A stretch of 64,000 bases of DNA from an uncultured SAR86 cluster bacterium (GTDB lineage: Bacteria > Pseudomonadota > Gammaproteobacteria > Magnimaribacterales > D2472): assembly GCA_902559885.1 (NCBI GenBank), contig CACEJU010000003.1, forward strand, positions 33,542 through 97,541, written 5' to 3'. Shown one piece after another: positions 37,219 to 49,357 of this stretch. The notes under the pieces were generated by a model. The model did no database searches and was not told the origin of the DNA. It saw only the letters and a program-made list of their open reading frames with translations. The position numbers and the translations under genes were made by a program. The number at the start of each line of letters is the position of its first letter. Position 1 is the first letter of the stretch.

Positions 37219-39954
<2,736 letters not shown>

Positions 39955-40575
39955 CTAATTATAACTTTCTAAGCTTTTAATTCGAGCAATCTCCTGGGCT
40001 TTATTTTCAAGATGAGAAATCATTTGTTTTGTAATGGGGGTCCTTTCTTGGTCGCAAATATTTGCATGAAATTTATCAGCAAATAAGTAAGAAAGATCAA
40101 CCATAGATTTTAAAGTTAGAATAGGATCATCAACAGTTACAAGATCTGCAGCAACTATTATTGCAAATGTTTTTGTTTCCTCGTTGAGTAACCCAGGATT
40201 TAAAGCGTTAGCAATTCTATATTCCTCATTACCAGAACTTAAGACCGAAAAAAAACCATTATTAAACTTAGCATCTATGTTATTCATAAATCCAAACAAT
40301 TGATCCATATCAAAGAAAGATTTATCGATAGATATTAAGTTAAAAACTACTAACTCCTGATCTGGGAGATCATTGCTTGAATTATCGAATTCAAAAGAAG
40401 TTTGTTCCGCTTTTGAATGCTTAGAATCTGAAATATTGCTATCAATGGAGGGTTCTATTTTTACATGAAGATCTCTATTGCTTGAAATTTTCTTAACAAA
40501 AAAGAAAGTAAGTACTAAGAAAGCTAGTACAGATATACCAATAAGATATATTTCAATATTAGCATCTATCATCAT
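39955..40575 (-). CDS. zipA: cell division protein ZipA (short form)
   Basis: 206 aa. N-terminal TM anchor plus a ZipA-like C-terminal domain. Sits in the conserved smc-zipA-ligA position. The P/Q-rich linker is largely absent. Confidence 0.6.
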   Translation of the reverse strand: MMIDANIEIYLIGISVLAFLVLTFFFVKKISSNRDLHVKIEPSIDSNISDSKHSKAEQTSFEFDNSSNDLPDQELVVFNLISIDKSFFDMDQLFGFMNNIDAKFNNGFFSVLSSGNEEYRIANALNPGLLNEETKTFAIIVAADLVTVDDPILTLKSMVDLSYLFADKFHANICDQERTPITKQMISHLENKAQEIARIKSLESYN

Positions 40576-42755
40576 GCCTCAGCCATTTCTAAAGCTTGGC
40601 TAACATCAACAGAAACCATTCTTGAAACCCCAGCTTCTTGCATAGTGACGCCCATCAGGTGATCGCTTTTTTCCATTGAAACCTTGTTATGTGTAATAAA
40701 TATAAATTGAACATTTTTTGACATTTCATCAACCATGTCTATGAATCTCATAGTATTTAAATCATCTAATGGTGCATCTACCTCATCTAACATACAAAAA
40801 GGTGCTGGGTTTAATTCAAATAAAGCAAAAACTAATGCAAGTGCAGTTAATGCTTTTTCACCACCAGATAATTGCGATATTGTTGCATTCTTTTTTCCAG
40901 GAGGTCTAGCCATTAAAACAACGCCTGCATTAAGCGGATCTGGATCGGTCAATGTTAATTCAGCAAAACCTCCTCCAAATAATTTAGGGAATACCTCTTT
41001 AACTTTAGCATTGACAGAATCAAAACTTTCTTTAAAAATTATTTTAGTTTCCTGATCAATTTTTTTAATAGCATCAGAAAGTTTAGCAAGAGCTTCTTCA
41101 AGATCTTGATACTGCTCATCAAGATCATCTTTTCTTTTTGATTCTTCTGCTATTTCTTCAGGAGCCGCTAAATTAATTGCACCAAGTCTTACAATTTTTA
41201 CCTGTATTTCATTTAGTAAGTCTTCAAGCTCACTAATTTTTAGATTTTCATATTTAGATAAATCTAATTCTTCAATATTTATTCCAGCATCATTAAGCTT
41301 AGACTGTGCGGTTTCATATTTAATCTGATGTGATTTTAGCTCAACTCTATTATTTGATATTTTCTCAGCAATAGTTCTTAAATCTAGCTCAGCCATTGAT
41401 CGATCTCGCTCAAGCTCTCTAACTTCTGCATCAACTTTTGATTGTTGTTGTCTAATTTTATTTAATTCTGTTTCAGATAGAGCGCTATCTTCAATTAACG
41501 CTTTTAATTCAAGTGAATTTTTTTCTTGAATTTTTTGTGAGCTATTTATGTCATTAGTTAACCTTGATTTACGAAGTATGTAATCATCTTGAATTGATTT
41601 AGTTTGAGCAGATGCAATATCAAAAATCTCTAAAAGTAGCTCTTTTAGCTCAATAGTCTTAGTCTTTATTGTGTCATTAGGTATTGATGAAATAATTTCA
41701 TCAAGAATGTGAAGTGCTTTTTCTTTTGGAGTTAAGTTTTCAAAATTAGAATTTTTTTCAATTGTTTTTTGGTGCAATGCCTCTACTCTATCTAATTCCT
41801 CTTTCAGACTATCTTCAGAAGACTTTGCATTATGAATATTCTGTTCAAGTCTCGCGATTTCAGCACCAATTGTGTAGTATTTTTTCTGAGCTTCTTCATA
41901 GGAGTTTATAACTGATTCATTCTGTGTTCTAAACTCATCAATTTGGGCCTGCTTAGCTTGAGTTTCAGCTTCTTTAATTTTGTAATCTCTGTTGTATTTA
42001 TCAATTATTTTTTGCAATTCATCTCTTTTTTCTTGCGCCTCTAATAAGAAAAGCACAGAAATATCGATCTCTGTCTCATTTTCTTGTTTTTTAAGAAATT
42101 GGTATTTTTCAGCTGCTTTTGCTTGACCCTCAAGACGCCTTATTAGTCTTGCAATCTCGTCTCTAATATCTTTTACTCTTGAAAGATTCTCTTTGGTTCT
42201 TTTAATTCTGCTTTCTGTTTCTTTTCTTCTTTCACGATATTTTGATACACCCGCAGCTTCCTCTATATGAACTCTTAATTCCTCTGGTTTTGCACCAACA
42301 AGGTTACTTACCATACCTTGCTCAATAATTGCATACGAATTAGGGCCTAGGCCTGTTCCCAAAAAAATATCCTGAACATCCTTTCGCCTACATTTTGTAT
42401 TATTTATAAAATAATCTGATATGCCATCTCTAGTCATAGATCTTTTAATAGAGATTTCATTAAATGATGCGTATTCGCCCCCGATTTTTCCCATTGAATT
42501 ATCAAATAATAACTCTACGGTACATTGCCCCGAAGCTTTTCTTTTATCTGAGCCATTAAAGATAACATCAACCATAGAATCACCCCTAAGATTCTTTGCT
42601 GAAAGCTCGCCTAAAACCCATTTAACTGCATCTATAACATTAGATTTACCACAACCATTTGGGCCTACAACTCCAACTAGATTTGTTGGAAAAGTAATTT
42701 TCGTGGAATCCACGAAGCTCTTAAAACCTGAAAGTTTTATGTGTTTAAGCTGCAT
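40572..42755 (-). CDS. smc: chromosome segregation protein SMC, unusually short (727 aa, no recognisable hinge)
   Basis: Canonical N-terminal head (FKSFVD..GPNGCGKSNVIDAVKWVLGE) and C-terminal head (LSGGEKALTALALVFALF..FCMLDEVDAPLDD) in one uninterrupted ORF. About 390 aa of coiled-coil-like sequence lies between them. Confidence 0.8.
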   Translation of the reverse strand: MQLKHIKLSGFKSFVDSTKITFPTNLVGVVGPNGCGKSNVIDAVKWVLGELSAKNLRGDSMVDVIFNGSDKRKASGQCTVELLFDNSMGKIGGEYASFNEISIKRSMTRDGISDYFINNTKCRRKDVQDIFLGTGLGPNSYAIIEQGMVSNLVGAKPEELRVHIEEAAGVSKYRERRKETESRIKRTKENLSRVKDIRDEIARLIRRLEGQAKAAEKYQFLKKQENETEIDISVLFLLEAQEKRDELQKIIDKYNRDYKIKEAETQAKQAQIDEFRTQNESVINSYEEAQKKYYTIGAEIARLEQNIHNAKSSEDSLKEELDRVEALHQKTIEKNSNFENLTPKEKALHILDEIISSIPNDTIKTKTIELKELLLEIFDIASAQTKSIQDDYILRKSRLTNDINSSQKIQEKNSLELKALIEDSALSETELNKIRQQQSKVDAEVRELERDRSMAELDLRTIAEKISNNRVELKSHQIKYETAQSKLNDAGINIEELDLSKYENLKISELEDLLNEIQVKIVRLGAINLAAPEEIAEESKRKDDLDEQYQDLEEALAKLSDAIKKIDQETKIIFKESFDSVNAKVKEVFPKLFGGGFAELTLTDPDPLNAGVVLMARPPGKKNATISQLSGGEKALTALALVFALFELNPAPFCMLDEVDAPLDDLNTMRFIDMVDEMSKNVQFIFITHNKVSMEKSDHLMGVTMQEAGVSRMVSVDVSQALEMAEA

Positions 42756-42787: not shown

Positions 42788-43573
42788 CTATTGTGTCACT
42801 GTAGACCATTGATTTGTCTCAATTTTGTAGTCATTTATTGGTGATGAAATGATAAAGAAAAAAGTAGATTCAAAGCTATAACTAACACCATTCTCACATA
42901 GTATTTTAGCCTCTAATAGCATTTCCTCATTGTTAAGATAGGCAGAAGATAAATCAAAACCGGGAATAAGCGAATGACTGGAATCTAATAATATTTTATC
43001 AAGATCTGATGATTTTTTTGAAGCAATAGGTATCTCAGGCCCATTATTTATATAGACTTCAATTTCAGATTCCAGTATTGAACATTCCAAAGAACCTAAA
43101 GAAGACAAATCAACCATTAAAGCTACTTCTTTAGAAATTGGAAATTTTAAATCTCTTAACATTGTATAAAAATTGTAAAAGACTAACTTTTCTTCATTGG
43201 TTTGAAAAAAAGGTTCTGAAAAAGCAATAAGTGATTCAGCTGACTTAATTTTTTTATCAGAAATTGATTTATTTAAATATTTTACAAGCCAAATTTTTTG
43301 ATCCTCCAGAGGAACCAAAAGATCAAATTCTGAAAATAAATCGTCTTCTATTTCATTATTATTTAATATCTTTTGTATTATTTTGTTATTTAAGGAGCTA
43401 ATTTGATAATTTCCAATAAAAGAAAATGAGCTGAAATAAGCTAGAAGAACTATAGAAGTAATAAAAACTGTTACGCCTATAACCACTCCTTTTAAATTAG
43501 TTACTTGCTTAAAAAGAAAAGCAATAATCGGCAATAGAAACAAAATAGTAATTGCTATATATGGCAATATCAT
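42788..43573 (-). CDS. putative cytochrome c biogenesis accessory protein (CcmI-like position, atypical)
   Basis: Start taken at MILPYIAIT, where its ATG overlaps the ccmH TGA (ATGA). Two N-terminal TM helices as in CcmI, but I cannot recognise TPR repeats in the soluble part. Confidence 0.4.
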   Translation of the reverse strand: MILPYIAITILFLLPIIAFLFKQVTNLKGVVIGVTVFITSIVLLAYFSSFSFIGNYQISSLNNKIIQKILNNNEIEDDLFSEFDLLVPLEDQKIWLVKYLNKSISDKKIKSAESLIAFSEPFFQTNEEKLVFYNFYTMLRDLKFPISKEVALMVDLSSLGSLECSILESEIEVYINNGPEIPIASKKSSDLDKILLDSSHSLIPGFDLSSAYLNNEEMLLEAKILCENGVSYSFESTFFFIISSPINDYKIETNQWSTVTQ

Positions 43574-43938
43574 CTTTTTGATCTCATTATAAAAACTATA
43601 CTTGCTATCAATAAAAATATAAAAGGCGCAAACCATAATATATAGGTTTCGTTACTTAGCCCAGGATCATACAGAGATTGATTTCCATATCTTTGAGATA
43701 CAAATGTTTTAATTTCTTCATCTGATTTTTTTTCATTGATAAGCTCAGCTATTTTAAATTTTAAATCTTCGCTGACTGGAGCATTTGAACTTGCTAAAGA
43801 ACCGCTTGTACACTTAGGACATCGTATTTCTTTGATGAGGTTGTTAAATCTCTCCTCATCTTCATAGGTTGTTAACCCGTAATATGAAGAAGCAAATAAT
43901 AAAATTGGAAATAAATATATTAGTAAAAATTTTTTCAT
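43570..43938 (-). CDS. ccmH: cytochrome c-type biogenesis protein CcmH
   Basis: 122 aa. Signal peptide, IRCPKC redox motif, and a C-terminal TM helix. Confidence 0.8.
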   Translation of the reverse strand: MKKFLLIYLFPILLFASSYYGLTTYEDEERFNNLIKEIRCPKCTSGSLASSNAPVSEDLKFKIAELINEKKSDEEIKTFVSQRYGNQSLYDPGLSNETYILWFAPFIFLLIASIVFIMRSKR

Positions 43939-44465
43939 AAATTTTTAATGTTGTTCTTATTGATAATGGGCAAGAAAGTTTCTGTCCACACTCTTTCATT
44001 AACCTCGCCAGAGTAGTGAGCTATAATTTTTCCATTATGAATTAAAAATGTCTCAGGAGCGCCAGTAACACCTAAATCAAGTGCTAAAGAACCTTTTGGA
44101 TCATATAAAACCTCAGAATAAGGATCTCCATATTTATTAAGCCAATTTTGCGCATTAAACCTTTCATCTTTATAGTTTAGACCAATAATTTTTATATCTT
44201 TTCCTTTCAAATTCATTAAAAAAGGATGTTCCACTAAACATGTTATGCACCAACTTGCCCAGACATTTAATAAGCCAGTAGAAGGCAGATCTTGCTCATT
44301 AAGAAAAATTTTTTCATCATCTAAAGTCTCAAGATAAAAGCTTGGGAAAGCAAATTCGTCTGTTTGGAAGCCAGGATATATTTTTTCTTCAGATAAATAA
44401 AAATAAAAAAATATAAAAAATGTAGCTGGTACTAGAATAATAAATAATTTAAAAATATTTTTCAC
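43935..44465 (-). CDS. ccmG: thiol:disulfide oxidoreductase CcmG/DsbE
   Basis: 176 aa. TM anchor, WASWCITC, and the GVTGAPETFLI motif. Confidence 0.85.
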   Translation of the reverse strand: MKNIFKLFIILVPATFFIFFYFYLSEEKIYPGFQTDEFAFPSFYLETLDDEKIFLNEQDLPSTGLLNVWASWCITCLVEHPFLMNLKGKDIKIIGLNYKDERFNAQNWLNKYGDPYSEVLYDPKGSLALDLGVTGAPETFLIHNGKIIAHYSGEVNERVWTETFLPIINKNNIKNL

Positions 44466-46336
44466 GATTGCCTCCTGGTATTACTAATAATAAATAAAGA
44501 GGCAAGCGCCATCATAATCATTGATGCCCATATGTATCTAATAAAATAATTTAATTGTATATTTACTATCCATGATCCATCGTCTAATTGATCGCCTAAT
44601 GTGACATATATATCTTTTATTGGGGTTACTTTTATATCTGTTTCAGTTGTAATTTGTCCTCTAACAAAATATCTTCTTTTTTCTGGCTCAAGTATATATT
44701 GATTAGCGCCATCATTTACTTTTAAAAATCCCTTAATAGAATCATAATTAGAGCCATTAAGAACTTTGATTTGTTCCAATGTTATATTAATACCTTTATA
44801 TGTTTTAGTTTCATTGATATTTAAGTTTAAGACTCTTTCAGAACTTAAAAGCGAGTTTAAAGATATTGCAACAATTAAAACACCCAATCCAAAATGAGCA
44901 CAAAAACTGGCTATATTGATGTATTTACTCATAAATAATACAAATAAATATCTAATGATGATTAAATAGCCAACAAATAAACTAATAAGCAATAAAATAT
45001 TTTTAATCTCAAACTCTTGATATAGATAAAGTGTTATGACAAATGCAAAAATTATTGAAAAGCTAAGTGGATGAAGAAGTTTAATTTTACTAAGAGAGCC
45101 ATTCCAATTTATTTCTATTGAAAAAACAAGAAACACTGCTGCAATAATAGTGATCGGTATATATATTGAATTATAAAAAGGCGCACCGACACTTATCTTT
45201 TCATTATATAAATACTCAAAAATCAGAGGGTAAAGTACCCCTAACATAGTCGAAAAAATTAAAGTGATAAATAAAATATTATTTATTGAGATAAATGATT
45301 GTTTTGATATGAGAGTAGATTTTTTTGATGATAGTTTTTCATATTTATTTGCATAAATAAATAATGAAGACAGAACAATAATTGAACAAAATGCTAAAAG
45401 ATATAATCCTCTTTCTGGATCATTAGCAAATGAGTGAACGCTGTCAATGATTCCAGACCTAACTATAAATGCTCCAAATAAGCTTAAAGAAAAAACTAGT
45501 AATGCCAAAAGTATTGTCCAAGATCTATGAGCTCTTGTGTCAGCTGAAACTTTTAATGAGTGGATAAATGCAGTTGCTGCTAACCAAGGCATTAATGCAA
45601 CATTCTCAACTGGATCCCAGAACCAATAGCCTCCCCAACCTAATTCATAGTATGCCCACCAACTTCCTAAAGCAATTCCTATAGTTAAAAAAGACCAAGC
45701 AATAACCGACCAAGATCTTATAGCTCTTTCCCAACTATATGAATATTCTTCATGTATTAAAAAAGAAATGGAATATGCAAAAGGTATGACAAAACCAACA
45801 TATCCTAAATATAGTGTTGGTGGATGCATTGCTAATGCTGGGTCTTGTAAAACTGGGTTTATATCTGCACCATTTTCAGGTGCTAATGGAAGGATTTGAG
45901 TAAAAGGACTAGAGGTTAATAATAGAAAAACCATAAACCCAAAAAGTATTAAACTAATTATGCCGATTGAAGTCATCTTAATTTGATCATTAGATGGTTT
46001 ATGCAAATTAAAGAAGTATCCCCAAATTGCTAAGAATAAAATCCAAACAAACATAGAGCCTTCATGTGCACTCCAAATAGATGAAATTTTATAAAACACA
46101 GGTAAATTACTATTTGAATGATTGGCAATATACTCTACGCTAAAATCATCTGAAATGGCTAAGTAAACGTATATACCAAAAGATATAAATAATAAATAAC
46201 AACTATTTGAGAAAATATTTTTTATTAAGCTTTTAGATGCATCTGCTTGCTTAATAAATAGAAAGCTCAGACATGCACAAAGCAGGAAGGATGCTCCTGA
46301 AAGGATGCTCATATAGTGTGAAAGATTAATTAACAT
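44462..46336 (-). CDS. ccmF: cytochrome c heme lyase subunit CcmF
   Basis: 624 aa, polytopic. WGGYWFWDPVEN (WWD) motif. Confidence 0.9.
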   Translation of the reverse strand: MLINLSHYMSILSGASFLLCACLSFLFIKQADASKSLIKNIFSNSCYLLFISFGIYVYLAISDDFSVEYIANHSNSNLPVFYKISSIWSAHEGSMFVWILFLAIWGYFFNLHKPSNDQIKMTSIGIISLILFGFMVFLLLTSSPFTQILPLAPENGADINPVLQDPALAMHPPTLYLGYVGFVIPFAYSISFLIHEEYSYSWERAIRSWSVIAWSFLTIGIALGSWWAYYELGWGGYWFWDPVENVALMPWLAATAFIHSLKVSADTRAHRSWTILLALLVFSLSLFGAFIVRSGIIDSVHSFANDPERGLYLLAFCSIIVLSSLFIYANKYEKLSSKKSTLISKQSFISINNILFITLIFSTMLGVLYPLIFEYLYNEKISVGAPFYNSIYIPITIIAAVFLVFSIEINWNGSLSKIKLLHPLSFSIIFAFVITLYLYQEFEIKNILLLISLFVGYLIIIRYLFVLFMSKYINIASFCAHFGLGVLIVAISLNSLLSSERVLNLNINETKTYKGINITLEQIKVLNGSNYDSIKGFLKVNDGANQYILEPEKRRYFVRGQITTETDIKVTPIKDIYVTLGDQLDDGSWIVNIQLNYFIRYIWASMIMMALASLFIISNTRRQS

Positions 46337-46337
46337 A

Positions 46338-46733
46338 CTAATCTAGTTGAGGTGGCATATAGTTTTCATCATGTTTTGCAAGAACTTGATCTGCAACCAA
46401 AATATTCTTTTCAACATAGCCAAGTGCAACAACACCGCTACCCTCTTTAAATAAATCAGGAACGATTCCAGCATAATACACATCAACCGTTTCTTTATAA
46501 TCAGTGACAGTAAAAATTATTCCATCTTTATTTCTTTTAACAGAGCCATCAAGAACCATTCCTCCTAGTTTAACCCTTCTATTCTCTGAGAAATTTGCGC
46601 TTTTAAAATCTGAGGCTGTGTAAAAATAATCAAGTTTATTGTTAAGTGAATAAAGAATTAAAAATATTCCTAAACTTGCACCAAGCAAAATTAATAAAAC
46701 TTTTTTTAATCTCTTTCTTCTAATTAATTTCAT
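46338..46733 (-). CDS. ccmE: heme chaperone CcmE
   Basis: Start taken at MKLIRRKRL. TM anchor, OB fold, and the heme-binding LAKHDENYMPP motif. Confidence 0.85.
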   Translation of the reverse strand: MKLIRRKRLKKVLLILLGASLGIFLILYSLNNKLDYFYTASDFKSANFSENRRVKLGGMVLDGSVKRNKDGIIFTVTDYKETVDVYYAGIVPDLFKEGSGVVALGYVEKNILVADQVLAKHDENYMPPQLD

Positions 46734-46887
46734 TATTTTCTTTTTTAAAATTATTAATTTTAATTTTATAAAACAGGAATAGCCCAATTATCACCATTAA
46801 AAAAATAATAAGTACAACCCATACATAAATCCCATGACCATTCATGTAGAAAAGACTTCTAAGTGATTCAAATTGCACGTTCATCAT
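46720..46887 (-). CDS. ccmD: heme exporter protein CcmD
   Basis: About 55 aa, single TM. Its ATG at 46887 overlaps the ccmC TGA (ATGA). GIYVWVV motif. Confidence 0.7.
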   Translation of the reverse strand: MMNVQFESLRSLFYMNGHGIYVWVVLIIFLMVIIGLFLFYKIKINNFKKENNEIN

Positions 46888-47612
46888 ATTGATTGAATCC
46901 ATTTCTTATTTTTTTCTCTGAGTAAAATTTCATATTGAATTGCTCTAAGTACAATAGCAATAATTAAACCTAAAAATGAAAATATACATATCATTAAAGG
47001 ATAAAGCATAGCCAAGTCTATAGATGGTTTTGATGATAAAGTTATAGATGCAGGCTGATGAAGTGTGCTCCACCAATTTACAGACATTTTGATAATTGGA
47101 ATATTTATAAAACCAACTAAAGCTAACACCGATATAAACTTATCTGCTTTATCTAAATTATTAAATGAATTATGAAGAGAAATTAAGCCTAGATACATAA
47201 TAAATAATATCAATGTTGAGGTTATCCTTGCATCCCATTGCCACCATGTACCCCAGGTTGGTATTCCCCATATAGAACCAGAAATTAAGGCTAAAAAAGT
47301 AACACTGGCCCCAATTAGTGACACAGATTTAACAACATATGCTGCTAACTTTACTTTCCATATTAAAAAAATAAAACTTGCTACAGCGATCATCATATAT
47401 AAGCTTTGAGCAGCAAAAGATGCAGGTACATGCATGTATATAATCCTGTAGGAATTCCCTTGTACTTTATCAACTGGCGCATAAAGAATCCCCCAAATTA
47501 AACCAATTATTAAAGACGTAATTGATAGCCAGAAAAGATAAGGGAAAATTTTTTGCGAAACAAAATAAAATGTTTTTGGGGAAGCAAATTGATGAAAAAA
47601 TTTTTTAAACAC
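46884..47612 (-). CDS. ccmC: heme exporter protein CcmC
   Basis: 242 aa. WGTWWQWDARIT (WWD) motif. Confidence 0.9.
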   Translation of the reverse strand: MFKKFFHQFASPKTFYFVSQKIFPYLFWLSITSLIIGLIWGILYAPVDKVQGNSYRIIYMHVPASFAAQSLYMMIAVASFIFLIWKVKLAAYVVKSVSLIGASVTFLALISGSIWGIPTWGTWWQWDARITSTLILFIMYLGLISLHNSFNNLDKADKFISVLALVGFINIPIIKMSVNWWSTLHQPASITLSSKPSIDLAMLYPLMICIFSFLGLIIAIVLRAIQYEILLREKNKKWIQSI

Positions 47613-47617
47613 TTTGT

Positions 47618-48268
47618 CTAATCTAAATGAGCTTTTAAAATAAAAGATATTAAAAAAGGAATTATAGTTATTATAATTGAAAGCACGCCTAATAATAAAA
47701 TAATGTAACTATAAAAATTAAGAGCATATTCTAATGCTGTTATGAATTTACCAAGAGTAATTAAAATTGGTAATACAAGAGGAAGACATACTAAAGAGCT
47801 TAAAAGAGAGCCTTTATTTAAGCTCAATGAATTACCAAAACTAAATACAGCAAAATAGATATAATTAACTACAAGAGAAATTACGCCTATTAAGAGAGAG
47901 CTTTCAAAATTACTAGTAAAAGCTATTGCGAAAATAAAGCTTAAAATTCCAATTGGAACTCCAATCAACAACCAATAAACAAAAATCTTTATGAAAACTA
48001 TTAGTGGCAGCGAAATATTATTAACAATGTATTGATCCATAGTACCGTCTAAATAATCTTCTAGAAAAATATCTTCTGTAGAAAACATAATGGTCATTAA
48101 GGATCCTAACCAAAGAATAGAATAAAACGACTTGGCTAATTCACTTGTAGAATATTCAACAGTTAATGGATAGGCAATAATTATAAGAGTAAATATTAAT
48201 ACAGGCCCTAACCATGATCTTATTTTTTTAAAAAGCTTAAATAGCTCGATATGCAATAATCCTTTCAT
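47618..48268 (-). CDS. ccmB: heme exporter permease CcmB
   Basis: 216 aa, six TM. Lies between ccmA and ccmC. Confidence 0.8.
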   Translation of the reverse strand: MKGLLHIELFKLFKKIRSWLGPVLIFTLIIIAYPLTVEYSTSELAKSFYSILWLGSLMTIMFSTEDIFLEDYLDGTMDQYIVNNISLPLIVFIKIFVYWLLIGVPIGILSFIFAIAFTSNFESSLLIGVISLVVNYIYFAVFSFGNSLSLNKGSLLSSLVCLPLVLPILITLGKFITALEYALNFYSYIILLLGVLSIIITIIPFLISFILKAHLD

Positions 48269-48852
48269 TACAAATACACCTCAATTGAATCTAAGTTCAT
48301 ATCAATATGTGATGAATAGACTATTGTTTTACCCTTGGCTAATTCTTTTTTTAAAAATTCTATTAAATAGATTTGCGTTTTTGCATCTAAGCCAACGCAA
48401 GGCTCATCAAGAATAATAAGATCTGAATTATTATTAAATACTTTTAAGAGACTAGCTTTTTTTCTCTGACCAAAAGACAAACTACCTATTTTTAACTCTA
48501 ATTTATTTTTTAAGTTTAATGATTCAAGAAATATATTGGTATCTTTAATATCAAAAGAGCCATCCATCAGAATATTCTCTTTTAAAGTTAAATAATCCTT
48601 GAGTGCGTTGCTATGTCCAACCATAACCTTACTAATTTCCTCATCAATAATGACTTCCCCATTTGAAGATGAGCAAATACCCGCAATTATTCTTAAAAGT
48701 GTAGTCTTGCCACTTCCATTGGAGCCTTTTATATGAATTGATTCGCCTTTTTTTGCCTCAAAATTAATATTCTTAAATAACTTAGTATTATTTATAGAAT
48801 AGCCTATATTGTGAGCTGCTAATACATAATCATTTGTCATGTTTCTATTCAA
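48268..48852 (-). CDS. ccmA: heme export ABC ATPase CcmA
   Basis: 194 aa. Walker A GSNGSGKTTLLR, signature-like SFGQRK, and Walker B LIILDEP. The start could instead be the internal Met at 48840. Confidence 0.85.
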   Translation of the reverse strand: MNRNMTNDYVLAAHNIGYSINNTKLFKNINFEAKKGESIHIKGSNGSGKTTLLRIIAGICSSSNGEVIIDEEISKVMVGHSNALKDYLTLKENILMDGSFDIKDTNIFLESLNLKNKLELKIGSLSFGQRKKASLLKVFNNNSDLIILDEPCVGLDAKTQIYLIEFLKKELAKGKTIVYSSHIDMNLDSIEVYL

Positions 48853-49357
48853 ATTTAATATTTTTAGATCTTATTATAAGCGCTGGTAAAGGCTTTTGAG
48901 GGTCTAATCTAGAATATAGCCTTCTAGAGATCTCAGAAAAAATATTTTTTTCTATTTTACCAAAACCACCAATTGAAAAATATAAGTTTTTAGTAAAATA
49001 AATTCCTTGTTCAAAATCAGGGGTACTTCTCAATTTTGTGATAACTTTTTTAAAGTCCTGACCAATATTTTTTCTAAATTTATTAAATTTAAACCAACCC
49101 CAGCTAGGAAAAGGCATTGATGCAACCTTTTGTAATTTTAATCTGGTTTGTTTGTTTGGTATGGAGGATGGTGGCAATAAAACTACAATCTCTCCCTTAG
49201 ATTCTGCAATCTTAATATCTAGATCTTTAATGAATGAATCAATATTTTTAAAATTTAACTTTAAAAACTCTTCGTAAGAATCTGTTTTGATTGCTTTTTT
49301 ATCAGCGAGATGCTTGGATGAGCCAAGAACAATATAGGATACTAATTCTTGGCTCAA
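48845..49357 (-). CDS. hypothetical protein immediately upstream of ccmA (8-nt overlap if ccmA starts at 48852)
   Basis: 170 aa, soluble and basic. No family recognised. Weak resemblance of FSIGGFGKI to the C-terminal part of GT2-like proteins. Confidence 0.45.
   Translation of the reverse strand: MSQELVSYIVLGSSKHLADKKAIKTDSYEEFLKLNFKNIDSFIKDLDIKIAESKGEIVVLLPPSSIPNKQTRLKLQKVASMPFPSWGWFKFNKFRKNIGQDFKKVITKLRSTPDFEQGIYFTKNLYFSIGGFGKIEKNIFSEISRRLYSRLDPQKPLPALIIRSKNIKFE

What the first reader, a model, noticed from the sequence alone, without database searches (positions are those of the whole stretch)
40572..42755. Syntenic SMC shortened to 727 aa with no recognisable hinge
The gene sits in the conserved gammaproteobacterial smc-zipA-ligA position. 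It has textbook SMC head halves, with Walker A GPNGCGKSN at the N terminus and LSGGEKA plus Walker B MLDEVDAPLDD at the C terminus. The single uninterrupted ORF encodes only 727 aa, whereas bacterial SMC proteins are usually well over 1100 aa. The roughly 390 residues between the heads look like continuous coiled coil, rich in K/E/Q/L/I. I cannot find the Gly-rich globular hinge motifs. A short segment that is not heptad-like (..NFENLTPKEKALHILDEIISSIPNDTIKTKT..) may be the turn. The result is an SMC with a RecN- or Rad50-like hairpin architecture. That raises the question of how, or whether, it dimerises and entraps DNA. It may be an extreme case of genome streamlining, since ZipA in the same cluster has also lost its linker.
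Basis: partly seen in the sequence, partly recalled or inferred. Interest (0 to 1): 0.6.

Follow-up and report, generated by a model that had tools for sequence, protein, structure and literature searches.

The report
Natural hinge-less, half-length SMC of SAR86
This gene is the true chromosome-organising SMC protein of the abundant marine SAR86 bacteria, but it has no hinge domain and only half-length arms; it is conserved and under selection, so it is a natural "mini-SMC", although hinge-less ocean SMCs were first reported in 2024-25.

Summary
ORF 40572..42755 (-) encodes a 727-aa protein with intact SMC ATPase motifs. It scores above the curated SMC cutoff (TIGR02168, 822 vs 567 bits) and sits in ccm-smc-zipA-ligA synteny. 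No hinge exists. Pfam finds none, and a hinge HMM built from 70 canonical relatives finds nothing at E<=10. AlphaFold2 gives one long helix (170-336), a loop, a 15-residue helix (343-357), a turn, then a second long helix (361-489). Relative to canonical 1176-aa SMC, about residues 335-840 are missing (hinge plus the distal half of both arms).

It is not an assembly artefact. The organism is SAR86, and 727/732/736-aa forms occur in more than 20 independent genomes and hundreds of metagenome contigs, under purifying selection. A 995-aa SAR86 form is also hinge-less. It equals the 732-aa form plus one tandem repeat on each arm (120 + 143 aa). It nests among short forms in the tree, so it is probably a secondary re-lengthening.

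How the protein dimerises was not tested. I infer dimerisation through the conserved, hydrophobic helical apex. ScpAB presence could not be checked. A 2025 paper already described abundant oceanic hinge-less SMCs, assigned to Actinobacteria, so this is a new member of a recently described kind.

The parts
40572..42755 (-). smc gene, 727 codons plus stop: hinge-less, short-armed SMC ortholog
   Evidence: ORF. TIGR02168 821.6 bits against a cutoff of 567.35. SMC_N 2e-61.
42249..42755 (-). N-terminal half of the ATPase head (res 1-169), with Walker A GPNGCGKSN at 42639..42665 and the Q-loop Q146
   Evidence: Invariant columns. AF2 pLDDT 85-92. Foldseek TM 0.90-0.91 to solved Smc heads.
41748..42248 (-). 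N-terminal coiled-coil arm (res 170-336), one continuous helix of ~167 aa (~25 nm), collinear with the proximal half of the canonical N-arm
   Evidence: AF2 DSSP H170-336, pLDDT 80-89. TIGR02168 stretch 2-362 = profile 1-360. hhalign.
41676..41747 (-). Apex that replaces the hinge (res 337-360): loop NFENLT(P), 15-residue amphipathic helix KEKALHILDEIISSI, turn PND. The conserved hydrophobic stretch continues to about res 385 (ELKELLLEIFDIASAQ).
   Evidence: AF2. Conservation across the 727/732/995 forms and hydrophobic-position density of 0.37 against 0.19-0.31 in the arms. No Cys.
41187..41675 (-). C-terminal coiled-coil arm (res 361-523): helix 361-489, a joint-like break at 490-506 (G491), helix 507-523
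   Evidence: AF2 DSSP. It aligns to canonical residues from ~830-840 onward.
40572..41186 (-). C-terminal half of the head (res 524-727 plus stop): GAINLAAPEE junction, signature LSGGEKA (40851..40871), Walker B/D-loop MLDEVDAPLDD (40761..40793), H-loop H689, and a cap strand GVTMQEAGVSRMVSV nearly identical to B. subtilis
39955..40575 (-). zipA (206 aa, short linker). Its start overlaps the smc stop by 4 nt, so the two genes are probably in one operon.
   Evidence: ORF coordinates. ZipA_C 4.8e-08 at res 75-191. The same arrangement occurs in the L031-L035 loci.
37801..39951 (-). ligA (716 aa), the third gene of the conserved smc-zipA-ligA cluster
   Evidence: Pfam domains. PDB 2OWO 1e-183.

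Best explanation
This is the single orthologous Smc of a SAR86-clade gammaproteobacterium.

Shown:
- In an ancestor of the clade, an internal deletion removed the hinge and the distal half of both coiled-coil arms (canonical residues ~335-840).
- What remains is a complete ABC-ATPase head, two ~165-residue arms (~25 nm instead of ~50 nm) folded as an intramolecular antiparallel hairpin, and a ~25-50-residue all-helical cap.
- The gene is functional. Every ATPase motif is intact. The head, neck and cap are highly conserved. The whole ORF, including arms and apex, is under purifying selection. The form is fixed in many species.

Inferred:
- It still acts as a condensin-type DNA-organising ATPase, cycling ATP-dependent head engagement, presumably with a kleisin.
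- Two hairpins are held together at the far end by the conserved, unusually hydrophobic helical apex, which would form a small helical bundle. This would functionally replace the hinge, as the Rad50 zinc hook can do in engineered B. subtilis Smc.
- The result would be a half-size ring or rod.
- One SAR86 subclade later re-extended both arms by tandem duplication (120 aa on the N-arm, 143 aa on the C-arm) to give the 995-aa form. This suggests that arm length, not the hinge fold, is the selected variable.

The overall confidence blends about 0.9 for the identity, architecture and functionality claims with about 0.5-0.6 for apex-mediated dimerisation.
For: Identity as SMC:
- TIGR02168 scores 822 bits, above its 567 cutoff. 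RecN and Rad50 models score 29-36 bits against cutoffs of 400-1087.
- Best PDB matches are Smc heads at 1e-104. The modelled head superposes on Smc heads at TM 0.90-0.91.
- Head identity to canonical gammaproteobacterial SMCs is 45-50%.
- The smc-zipA-ligA synteny is shared with all hinge-less relatives.

No hinge:
- HMMs; AF2 shows only loop-helix-turn between the two long helices.

Real and fixed:
- The organism is SAR86. 20 species representatives carry 732 aa and 5 carry 995 aa.
- The forms are abundant in metagenomes, on contigs up to 1.37 Mb.

Selection:
- pS is ~0.7 (saturated). pN is ~0.02 in the heads and 0.08-0.25 in the arms and apex.

Apex:
- The motif NF[ED]xL[ST]PxEKA[LMI]H[IL]L...ELKxLL..I..IA[ST]xQSK is shared by the 727/732/995 forms.
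- Conserved-hydrophobic density is 0.37, like the globular heads, against 0.19-0.31 in the arms.
- The apex has only moderate pLDDT (53-74) in a monomer model, as expected if it needs a partner.

Polarity:
- NJ tree: 995+732 excluding 727 in 200/200 bootstraps. P0152 (736 aa) is sister to the core in 155/200. Distances to the outgroup are equal.
- The 995 form minus one repeat per arm is exactly 732 aa and collinear.

Precedent:
- B. subtilis Smc with its hinge replaced by the Pyrococcus Rad50 zinc hook supports normal growth. Certain shortened arms are functional. Natural arm lengths have a minor mode at 163 aa (PMC5344682).
Against: - Dimerisation at the apex was not tested.
- The apex is not more conserved than the N-arm (54% vs 58% identity between WIN and the 732 forms). 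In the more distant hinge-less lineages (P0152, P0186, P0248, P0258) the apex sequence is not recognisably the same.
- Genome-wide presence of ScpA/ScpB (or MksBEF/MukBEF) in SAR86 could not be examined. Only a crude motif scan of the window and 623 kb of loci was negative.
- The hinge's DNA-binding and gate functions would be lost, and nothing here shows what replaces them.
- For polarity, the two C-arm repeat copies are less alike (36%) than copy 2 is to the 732 ortholog (57%). Under a strict clock this would place the duplication before the split. It is reconciled only by the faster evolution seen in the inner copies (58-61% vs 75-77% within-clade identity).
- The tree is a distance tree on ~600 columns.
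Confidence: 0.7

Rival explanations
1. There is no distal dimerisation. Each hairpin is a separate unit, and two of them are joined only by ATP-driven head engagement and by a kleisin bridging neck and cap. The complex would keep a head/kleisin compartment and a DNA clamp on the engaged heads, but would have no closed arm (S) compartment.
For: There is no hinge and no zinc hook. The apex is short and of only moderate model confidence. The apex sequence is not conserved across the more distant hinge-less lineages. Heads and cap are very highly conserved.
Against: Within SAR86 the apex is conserved across the 727/732/995 forms and is richer in hydrophobic positions than a two-stranded coil needs. 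One clade re-lengthened both arms in a coordinated way, which is hard to explain if the arm tips do nothing together. In B. subtilis a dimerisation module at the arm tip was retained in all functional constructs (PMC5344682).
Confidence: 0.2
2. The coiled coil is intermolecular. The chain does not fold back, and the N-arm of one subunit pairs antiparallel with the C-arm of a second. This would give a ~50-nm rod with a composite head at each end.
For: With only ~24 residues at the apex and no hinge to enforce a fold-back, this topology is sterically possible. A monomer AF2 model cannot exclude it.
Against: The arms are collinear with the proximal arms of canonical SMCs, which fold intramolecularly. 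AF2 assembles the N and C halves into one confident head with TM 0.9 to solved heads. The conserved Pro-flanked loop-helix-turn (P343, P359) looks like a reversal element.
Confidence: 0.05
3. Assembly or gene-call artefact, or a decaying pseudogene. On this view the true gene is full length, or the short one is non-functional.
For: The length is ~450 aa below the norm. Single MAG or SAG assemblies can collapse repeats.
Against: The same architecture is found in more than 20 independent SAR86 SAGs/MAGs and hundreds of metagenome contigs from several sources. The reading frame is intact everywhere. Purifying selection is strong. There are no internal repeats in the short form that could collapse.
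Confidence: 0.01
4. It is an SMC-like paralog (RecN, SbcC/Rad50, or a defence ATPase) and not SMC itself.
For: It has a hairpin architecture without a hinge. NCBI pipelines call relatives 'recombination protein RecF' or 'AAA family ATPase'.
Against: It scores above the SMC equivalog cutoff and far below the RecN/Rad50 cutoffs. It has no CxxC. It sits in the conserved smc-zipA-ligA position. It nests within gammaproteobacterial SMCs in the tree.
Confidence: 0.02

Closest known systems
Bacterial Smc of Smc-ScpAB (e.g. Bacillus subtilis Smc; gammaproteobacterial Smc such as the 1164-1176-aa relatives P0124/P0126)
   Same: The head is orthologous and has all ATPase motifs. The neck, the joint-like break and the proximal arms are collinear. 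The cap strand is nearly identical. The genomic position is the same (smc-zipA-ligA).
   Different: It lacks the ~170-aa hinge and ~155-165 aa of each distal arm. The arms are ~165 aa instead of ~340 aa. The hinge's dimerisation, DNA-binding and gate functions have no evident counterpart.
Oceanic 'hinge-less SMC' cluster of PMC12153180 (Environ Microbiome 2025; preprint 2024)
   Same: It has an SMC-type head plus an antiparallel coiled coil, no hinge and no CXXC. It is highly abundant in Tara/OM-RGC data and is present in GORG-Tropics single-cell genomes.
   Different: That cluster was annotated as Actinomycetes and branched near Actinobacteria. This family is SAR86 (Gammaproteobacteria) by genome records and synteny. 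Identity of the two could not be tested because no sequences are in the held supplements. The paper gives no arm-length analysis, no synteny, no arm-duplication finding and no mechanism.
Engineered B. subtilis Smc(Zh) and Mini-Smc (Burmann et al. 2017, PMC5344682)
   Same: These are Smc proteins with a non-hinge dimerisation module or with shortened arms that still support growth. The ~165-aa arms here fall on the natural minor length mode (163 aa), two ~91-aa periods below the wild-type 344 aa.
   Different: The engineered proteins keep a proven dimeriser (hinge or zinc hook). Here the putative dimeriser is a short helical cap of unknown behaviour. This is a natural, fixed state and not a laboratory construct.
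RecN
   Same: It is a hinge-less SMC-like hairpin whose coiled-coil tip mediates dimerisation, and it has short arms.
   Different: The TIGR00634 score is 29 bits against a cutoff of 408. The head subfamily, genomic context and role (SOS repair) all differ.
Rad50 / SbcC
   Same: It is a hairpin with a small apex in place of a globular hinge.
   Different: The arms contain no CxxC zinc hook and no cysteine at all. Family scores are far below the cutoffs. No Mre11/SbcD partner was seen next to it.

Membership tests
Bacterial SMC (TIGR02168 SMC_prok_B) | Whole-protein match to the curated equivalog model above its cutoff | tested here: met
   821.6 bits against a cutoff of 567.35, in two stretches.
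Bacterial SMC (TIGR02168 SMC_prok_B) | ABC-type head assembled from the N and C termini, with Walker A, Q-loop, signature motif, Walker B/D-loop and H-loop | tested here: met
   All motifs are present and invariant. The AF2 head has TM 0.90-0.91 to solved Smc heads.
Bacterial SMC (TIGR02168 SMC_prok_B) | Long antiparallel intramolecular coiled-coil arms (~340 aa each) | tested here: inconclusive
   Helical arms are present but only ~165 aa each. The intramolecular fold is inferred from the assembled head, not observed.
Bacterial SMC (TIGR02168 SMC_prok_B) | Central globular hinge domain (PF06470) that dimerises the protein | tested here: not met
   No Pfam hit at E<=1. No hit to a lineage-specific hinge HMM at E<=10 with filters off. 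AF2 shows only loop, 15-aa helix and turn.
Bacterial SMC (TIGR02168 SMC_prok_B) | Orthology: conserved gene position and phylogenetic placement among SMCs | tested here: met
   smc-zipA-ligA synteny. The protein nests among gammaproteobacterial SMCs.
Bacterial SMC (TIGR02168 SMC_prok_B) | Works with the kleisin ScpA and the kite ScpB | not testable with these tools
   Only the 64-kb window and +/-10-kb loci are available, and a crude ScpA motif scan of them was negative.
Oceanic hinge-less SMC (PMC12153180) | SMC-type head and coiled coil, no hinge, no CXXC hook | tested here: met
   The paper's description was read.
Oceanic hinge-less SMC (PMC12153180) | Abundant in ocean metagenomes and found in GORG-Tropics SAGs | tested here: met
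   Tara, JGI and ENA contigs. AG-xxx GORG SAGs.
Oceanic hinge-less SMC (PMC12153180) | Actinobacterial affiliation / same sequence cluster | tested here: not met
   All organism labels are SAR86 or Gammaproteobacteria and none is Actinomycetes. A direct sequence comparison was impossible.
Rad50/SbcC | CxxC zinc hook at the coiled-coil apex | tested here: not met
   No cysteine anywhere in the arms.
Rad50/SbcC | Family HMM score above cutoff | tested here: not met
   Best Rad50 models score 34-36 bits against cutoffs of 700-1087.
RecN | Family HMM (TIGR00634) above cutoff | tested here: not met
   29 bits against 407.85.

The most novel reading that the evidence does not exclude
SAR86 Smc is a natural minimal SMC motor that organises a chromosome without any stable distal dimerisation, that is, without a closed arm compartment. 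On this reading the hinge and topological entrapment between the arms are dispensable for condensin function in vivo, and arm length alone is tuned, as the independent re-lengthening by duplication in one subclade would indicate.
Probability: 0.2. Interest if true: 0.85.

Novelty: new member of a known kind. Interest (0 to 1): 0.55.

Why it matters
The hinge is treated as a defining and essential part of SMC proteins, serving as dimerisation site, DNA-binding surface and possible DNA gate. Here one of the most abundant bacterial clades in the ocean has done without it for a long evolutionary time, with arms half the usual length.

The clade also offers a natural series of 727, 732, 736, 810, 827, 906 and 995-aa hinge-less forms. 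It includes a coordinated two-arm duplication, which is an evolutionary replicate of the laboratory arm-resizing experiments. This makes several questions directly testable with small, tractable proteins:
- what the hinge is really needed for;
- what minimal dimerisation suffices;
- how arm length is tuned.

On the practical side, these proteins are mis-named RecF or 'AAA family ATPase' in public records.

Tried and rejected
1. Pfam alone as the hinge test was rejected as insufficient. It detects the canonical proteobacterial L026 hinge at only 18.7 bits, below its cutoff. I replaced it with a custom HMM.
2. BLASTP self-comparison did not report the internal repeats of the 995-aa form. Segment-against-segment BLAST did.
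The first accepted model had poor heads from a shallow alignment and was redone with 103 sequences.
4. The afdb50 fold library was unavailable.
5. A Biopython bootstrap timed out and was redone with vectorised distances.
6. Looking for ScpA by a GPLDLL-type motif in the window and all loci found nothing. This is a weak test resting on my recollection of the motif, and it says nothing about the rest of the genome.
7. I tried to match the published hinge-less cluster to this family through the paper's supplements. They hold only identifiers.
8. Literature searches for 'SMC hinge SAR86', 'hingeless SMC', 'lacks the hinge' and 'SAR86 ScpA/ScpB' found nothing relevant.
9. I considered that the apex might be a degenerate copy of the NLAAPEE head-junction segment (LTPKEKA vs LAAPEEIA). 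I did not test this and do not claim it.
Full report
**Observation**

The ORF at 40572..42755 (minus strand) is real, uninterrupted and encodes 727 aa. The window has ~31% G+C.

- The protein carries Walker A GPNGCGKSN (res 31-39), Q146, the signature LSGGEKA (629-635), Walker B/D-loop MLDEVDAPLDD (655-665) and H689. All of these are invariant in an alignment of 103 SMCs.
- Pfam reports SMC_N spanning residues 3-711 (2e-61) and no SMC_hinge, even at E<=1.
- NCBIfam's SMC equivalog TIGR02168 scores 821.6 bits against a cutoff of 567.35. The first stretch aligns residues 2-362 to profile positions 1-360 of 1181. RecN and Rad50 models score only 29-36 bits against cutoffs of 400-1087.
- The best solved relatives are Smc heads (5xg3, 1e-104), matched only over residues 2-222 and 517-723.
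- zipA (206 aa; its start overlaps the smc stop by 4 nt) and ligA follow directly. A ccm operon lies upstream.

**Is the hinge really absent?**

Pfam alone is not decisive. It finds the hinge of a canonical 1169-aa proteobacterial SMC (L026) at only 18.7 bits, which is below its cutoff. I therefore used three further tests.

- I built a hinge HMM from 70 canonical relatives. It scores 80-200 bits on held-out canonical proteins and on L026.
- With all filters off, that HMM gives no hit at E<=10 in the window protein, in any 727/732/736/810/827/906/995-aa relative, or in any six-frame ORF of the window.
- Two AlphaFold2 models agree on the middle region (19-sequence alignment; 103-sequence alignment with mean pLDDT 83 and pTM 0.54).

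The models give this secondary structure:

| Residues | Element |
|---|---|
| 170-336 | single helix (N-arm) |
| 337-342 | loop, pLDDT below 50 |
| 343-357 | short helix |
| 358-360 | turn (PND) |
| 361-489 | helix (C-arm) |
| 490-506 | joint-like break |
| 507-524 | helix |
| 531 onward | C-terminal head region (helix 531-593) |

In the better model the head is confident (85-92) and superposes on solved Smc heads with TM 0.90-0.91. The N and C halves therefore meet and the arms must form a hairpin. The arms contain no cysteine, so there is no zinc hook. A profile alignment to canonical SMCs places the missing material at about residues 335-840 of a 1176-aa protein. That covers the hinge and the distal half of both arms, lost roughly symmetrically.

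**Is it real and functional?**

A scan of reference genomes identifies the organism as SAR86.

- 20 species representatives (GORG single-cell genomes and MAGs) carry a collinear 732-aa ortholog at 67-69% identity.
- 5 species representatives carry a 995-aa form.
- The window's exact protein is in public collections. Its 90% cluster has 138 members, and one variant occurs on 77 contigs up to 1.28 Mb.
- The 732-aa form is on contigs up to 1.37 Mb and in Tara data.

Among the 732-aa genes, synonymous sites are saturated (pS ~0.7). Nonsynonymous differences are ~0.02 in the heads and 0.08-0.25 in the arms and apex. This is purifying selection along the entire gene. Assembly collapse and pseudogenisation are excluded.

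**The wider family**

An exhaustive search of 1.8 billion cluster representatives shows that almost all relatives are canonical 1140-1220-aa SMCs at 39-52% identity. The exceptions are:

- the 995- and 732-aa SAR86 forms;
- a 736-aa form (P0152, 48% identity, 458 cluster members);
- hinge-less 810-, 827- and 906-aa forms.

All of these lie in smc-zipA(-ligA) synteny in seawater metagenomes. They are orthologs, not paralogs.

Two ~1000-aa relatives keep the hinge but lack 82-91 aa symmetrically in each arm. That is one coiled-coil superhelical period, matching the periodic length rule of Burmann et al. 2017 (PMC5344682).

**The 995-aa form**

It is also hinge-less and contains internal repeats:

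- N-arm 281-380 matches 401-501 (37-43% identity, E 1e-19 to 1e-23).
- C-arm 515-659 matches 658-802 (34-38% identity, E 1e-34 to 1e-38).

Removing one unit per arm (120 + 143 aa) gives exactly 732 aa, collinear with the short form and carrying the same apex.

In a distance tree of the first and last 300 residues:

- the core SAR86 clade is monophyletic (200/200);
- the 995 clade is sister to the 732 clade to the exclusion of the 727 clade (200/200);
- P0152 (736 aa) is sister to the core (155/200);
- identities to P0152 are equal (51-52%).

Parsimony therefore makes the ~730-aa hinge-less form ancestral and the 995-aa form a secondary re-lengthening of both arms.

One tension remains. The two C-arm copies are less alike (36%) than copy 2 is to its 732 ortholog (57%). 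The inner copies do evolve faster (58-61% vs 75-77% identity within the clade), which can account for this. I hold the polarity at about 70-75% confidence.

**The apex**

Within SAR86 the apex is conserved across all three length classes: NF[ED]xL[ST]PxEKA[LMI]H[IL]L ... ELKxLL..I..IA[ST]xQSK[ST]..[DE]Y.

- Its density of conserved hydrophobic positions is 0.37. That equals the globular heads (0.37-0.40) and exceeds the flanking arms (0.19-0.31).
- This suits a small helical bundle better than a two-stranded coil.
- Its pLDDT is only 53-74 in the monomer model.
- It is not more conserved than the N-arm overall.
- It is not recognisably shared with the more distant hinge-less lineages.

**Mechanism**

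Shown: this is an orthologous Smc with a complete ATPase head, ~25-nm hairpin arms and a helical cap, and it is maintained by selection.

Inferred: it still works as a condensin-type ATPase, and two hairpins are joined distally through the hydrophobic apex, which replaces the hinge.

The inference draws on experiments in B. subtilis (PMC5344682):

- arms were functional only at particular lengths, with a ~91-aa period;
- natural prokaryotic arm lengths show a minor mode at 163 aa, which is what I measure here (167 and 163 aa).

The main rival is that there is no distal dimerisation and the complex is held together only by engaged heads and a kleisin. I could not test dimerisation, because no multimer prediction or model coordinates were available. 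I also could not test whether SAR86 has ScpA/ScpB, because only a crude motif scan of the window and loci was possible.

**Comparison with what is known**

A 2025 paper (PMC12153180; preprint January 2024) reports a monophyletic, very abundant oceanic cluster of 'hinge-less SMC' from OM-RGC.

- AlphaFold shows head plus coiled coil without a hinge.
- There is no CXXC motif.
- The cluster does not co-occur with a normal SMC in GORG-Tropics genomes.
- It was assigned by OM-RGC annotation and tree position to Actinomycetes.
- The paper does not mention SAR86, gives no synteny, arm-length or repeat analysis, and leaves the function open.

Its supplements, as held here, list only identifiers, so I could not test whether that cluster is this family. 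All public labels for the present family are SAR86, Gammaproteobacteria or Proteobacteria, plus obvious mis-bins such as Flavobacteriales and Prochlorococcus. None is Actinomycetes. Either hinge loss happened in parallel in two streamlined ocean lineages, or the published taxonomy is wrong.

In both cases the kind of object, a natural hinge-less SMC in abundant marine bacteria, is already in the literature. What is added here:

- the SAR86 assignment;
- proof of orthology by synteny;
- the finding that half of each arm is gone as well;
- the graded family of hinge-less lengths;
- the coordinated arm duplication.

**Verdict**

The feature is genuine, biologically interesting and mechanistically unexplained, but it is not unprecedented. 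I rate it a new member of a recently described kind, with interest 0.55.

Noticed in passing
window 38566..38703 (-), inside ligA (37801..39951): LigA has a ~46-aa insertion (residues 417-462) between the two cysteine pairs of its zinc finger relative to E. coli LigA 2OWO (query 8-416 = 8-416; 463-710 = 422-670). This gene of the operon has grown while smc and zipA have shrunk.
   Followed up: partly
window 39955..40575 (-): ZipA is only 206 aa. It has a TM segment, a ~45-aa linker and ZipA_C at residues 75-191. Its start codon overlaps the smc stop by 4 nt. ZipA in the related hinge-less-SMC loci is 157-222 aa.
   Followed up: partly
L020-L024 (995-aa SMC at 10001-12982 in L020, L021, L023, L024; 8980-11961 in L022): The 995-aa SAR86 SMC equals the 732-aa form plus one 120-aa N-arm repeat and one 143-aa C-arm repeat. 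The inner copies evolve faster than the head-proximal ones. The resulting arm lengths (~287 and ~306 aa) fall between the functional length windows reported for B. subtilis. This is unexplained.
   Followed up: yes
P0157 (1003 aa) and P0168 (990 aa), marine metagenome SMCs: These hinge-bearing SMCs lack 82-91 aa symmetrically in each arm, which is one coiled-coil superhelical period. They are a natural example of the periodic arm-length rule.
   Followed up: partly
L030:6176-9031 (Nanoarchaeota MAG): This 952-aa archaeal SMC has no Pfam hinge hit and no hit to the custom hinge HMM. It may be another hinge-less or highly divergent case.
   Followed up: no
public records of the 727/732/995-aa proteins (e.g. 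RZO27720.1, MBU28052.1, MBL6818365.1): Many are named 'recombination protein RecF', 'AAA family ATPase' or 'hypothetical protein'. Some sit in MAGs labelled Flavobacteriales or Prochlorococcus. These are likely mis-annotation and mis-binning.
   Followed up: partly
window 42788..49357 (-), upstream of smc: A cytochrome c maturation operon (ccmA/B/C/E/F, dsbE/ccmG, ccmH and a 282-aa CcmI-like ORF) abuts smc. The ccm-smc-zipA order recurs in the P0152 and P0186 loci, so it is a clade-level synteny marker.
   Followed up: partly
L034/L035 (P0258, 906 aa) and L032/L033 (P0186 810 aa, P0248 827 aa): Further hinge-less SMC lineages with other lengths and different apex sequences. P0258 has a different upstream context (PhyH, QueF). 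Whether these are independent hinge losses or steps of one progressive shortening is unresolved, because the deep tree nodes are unsupported.
   Followed up: partly
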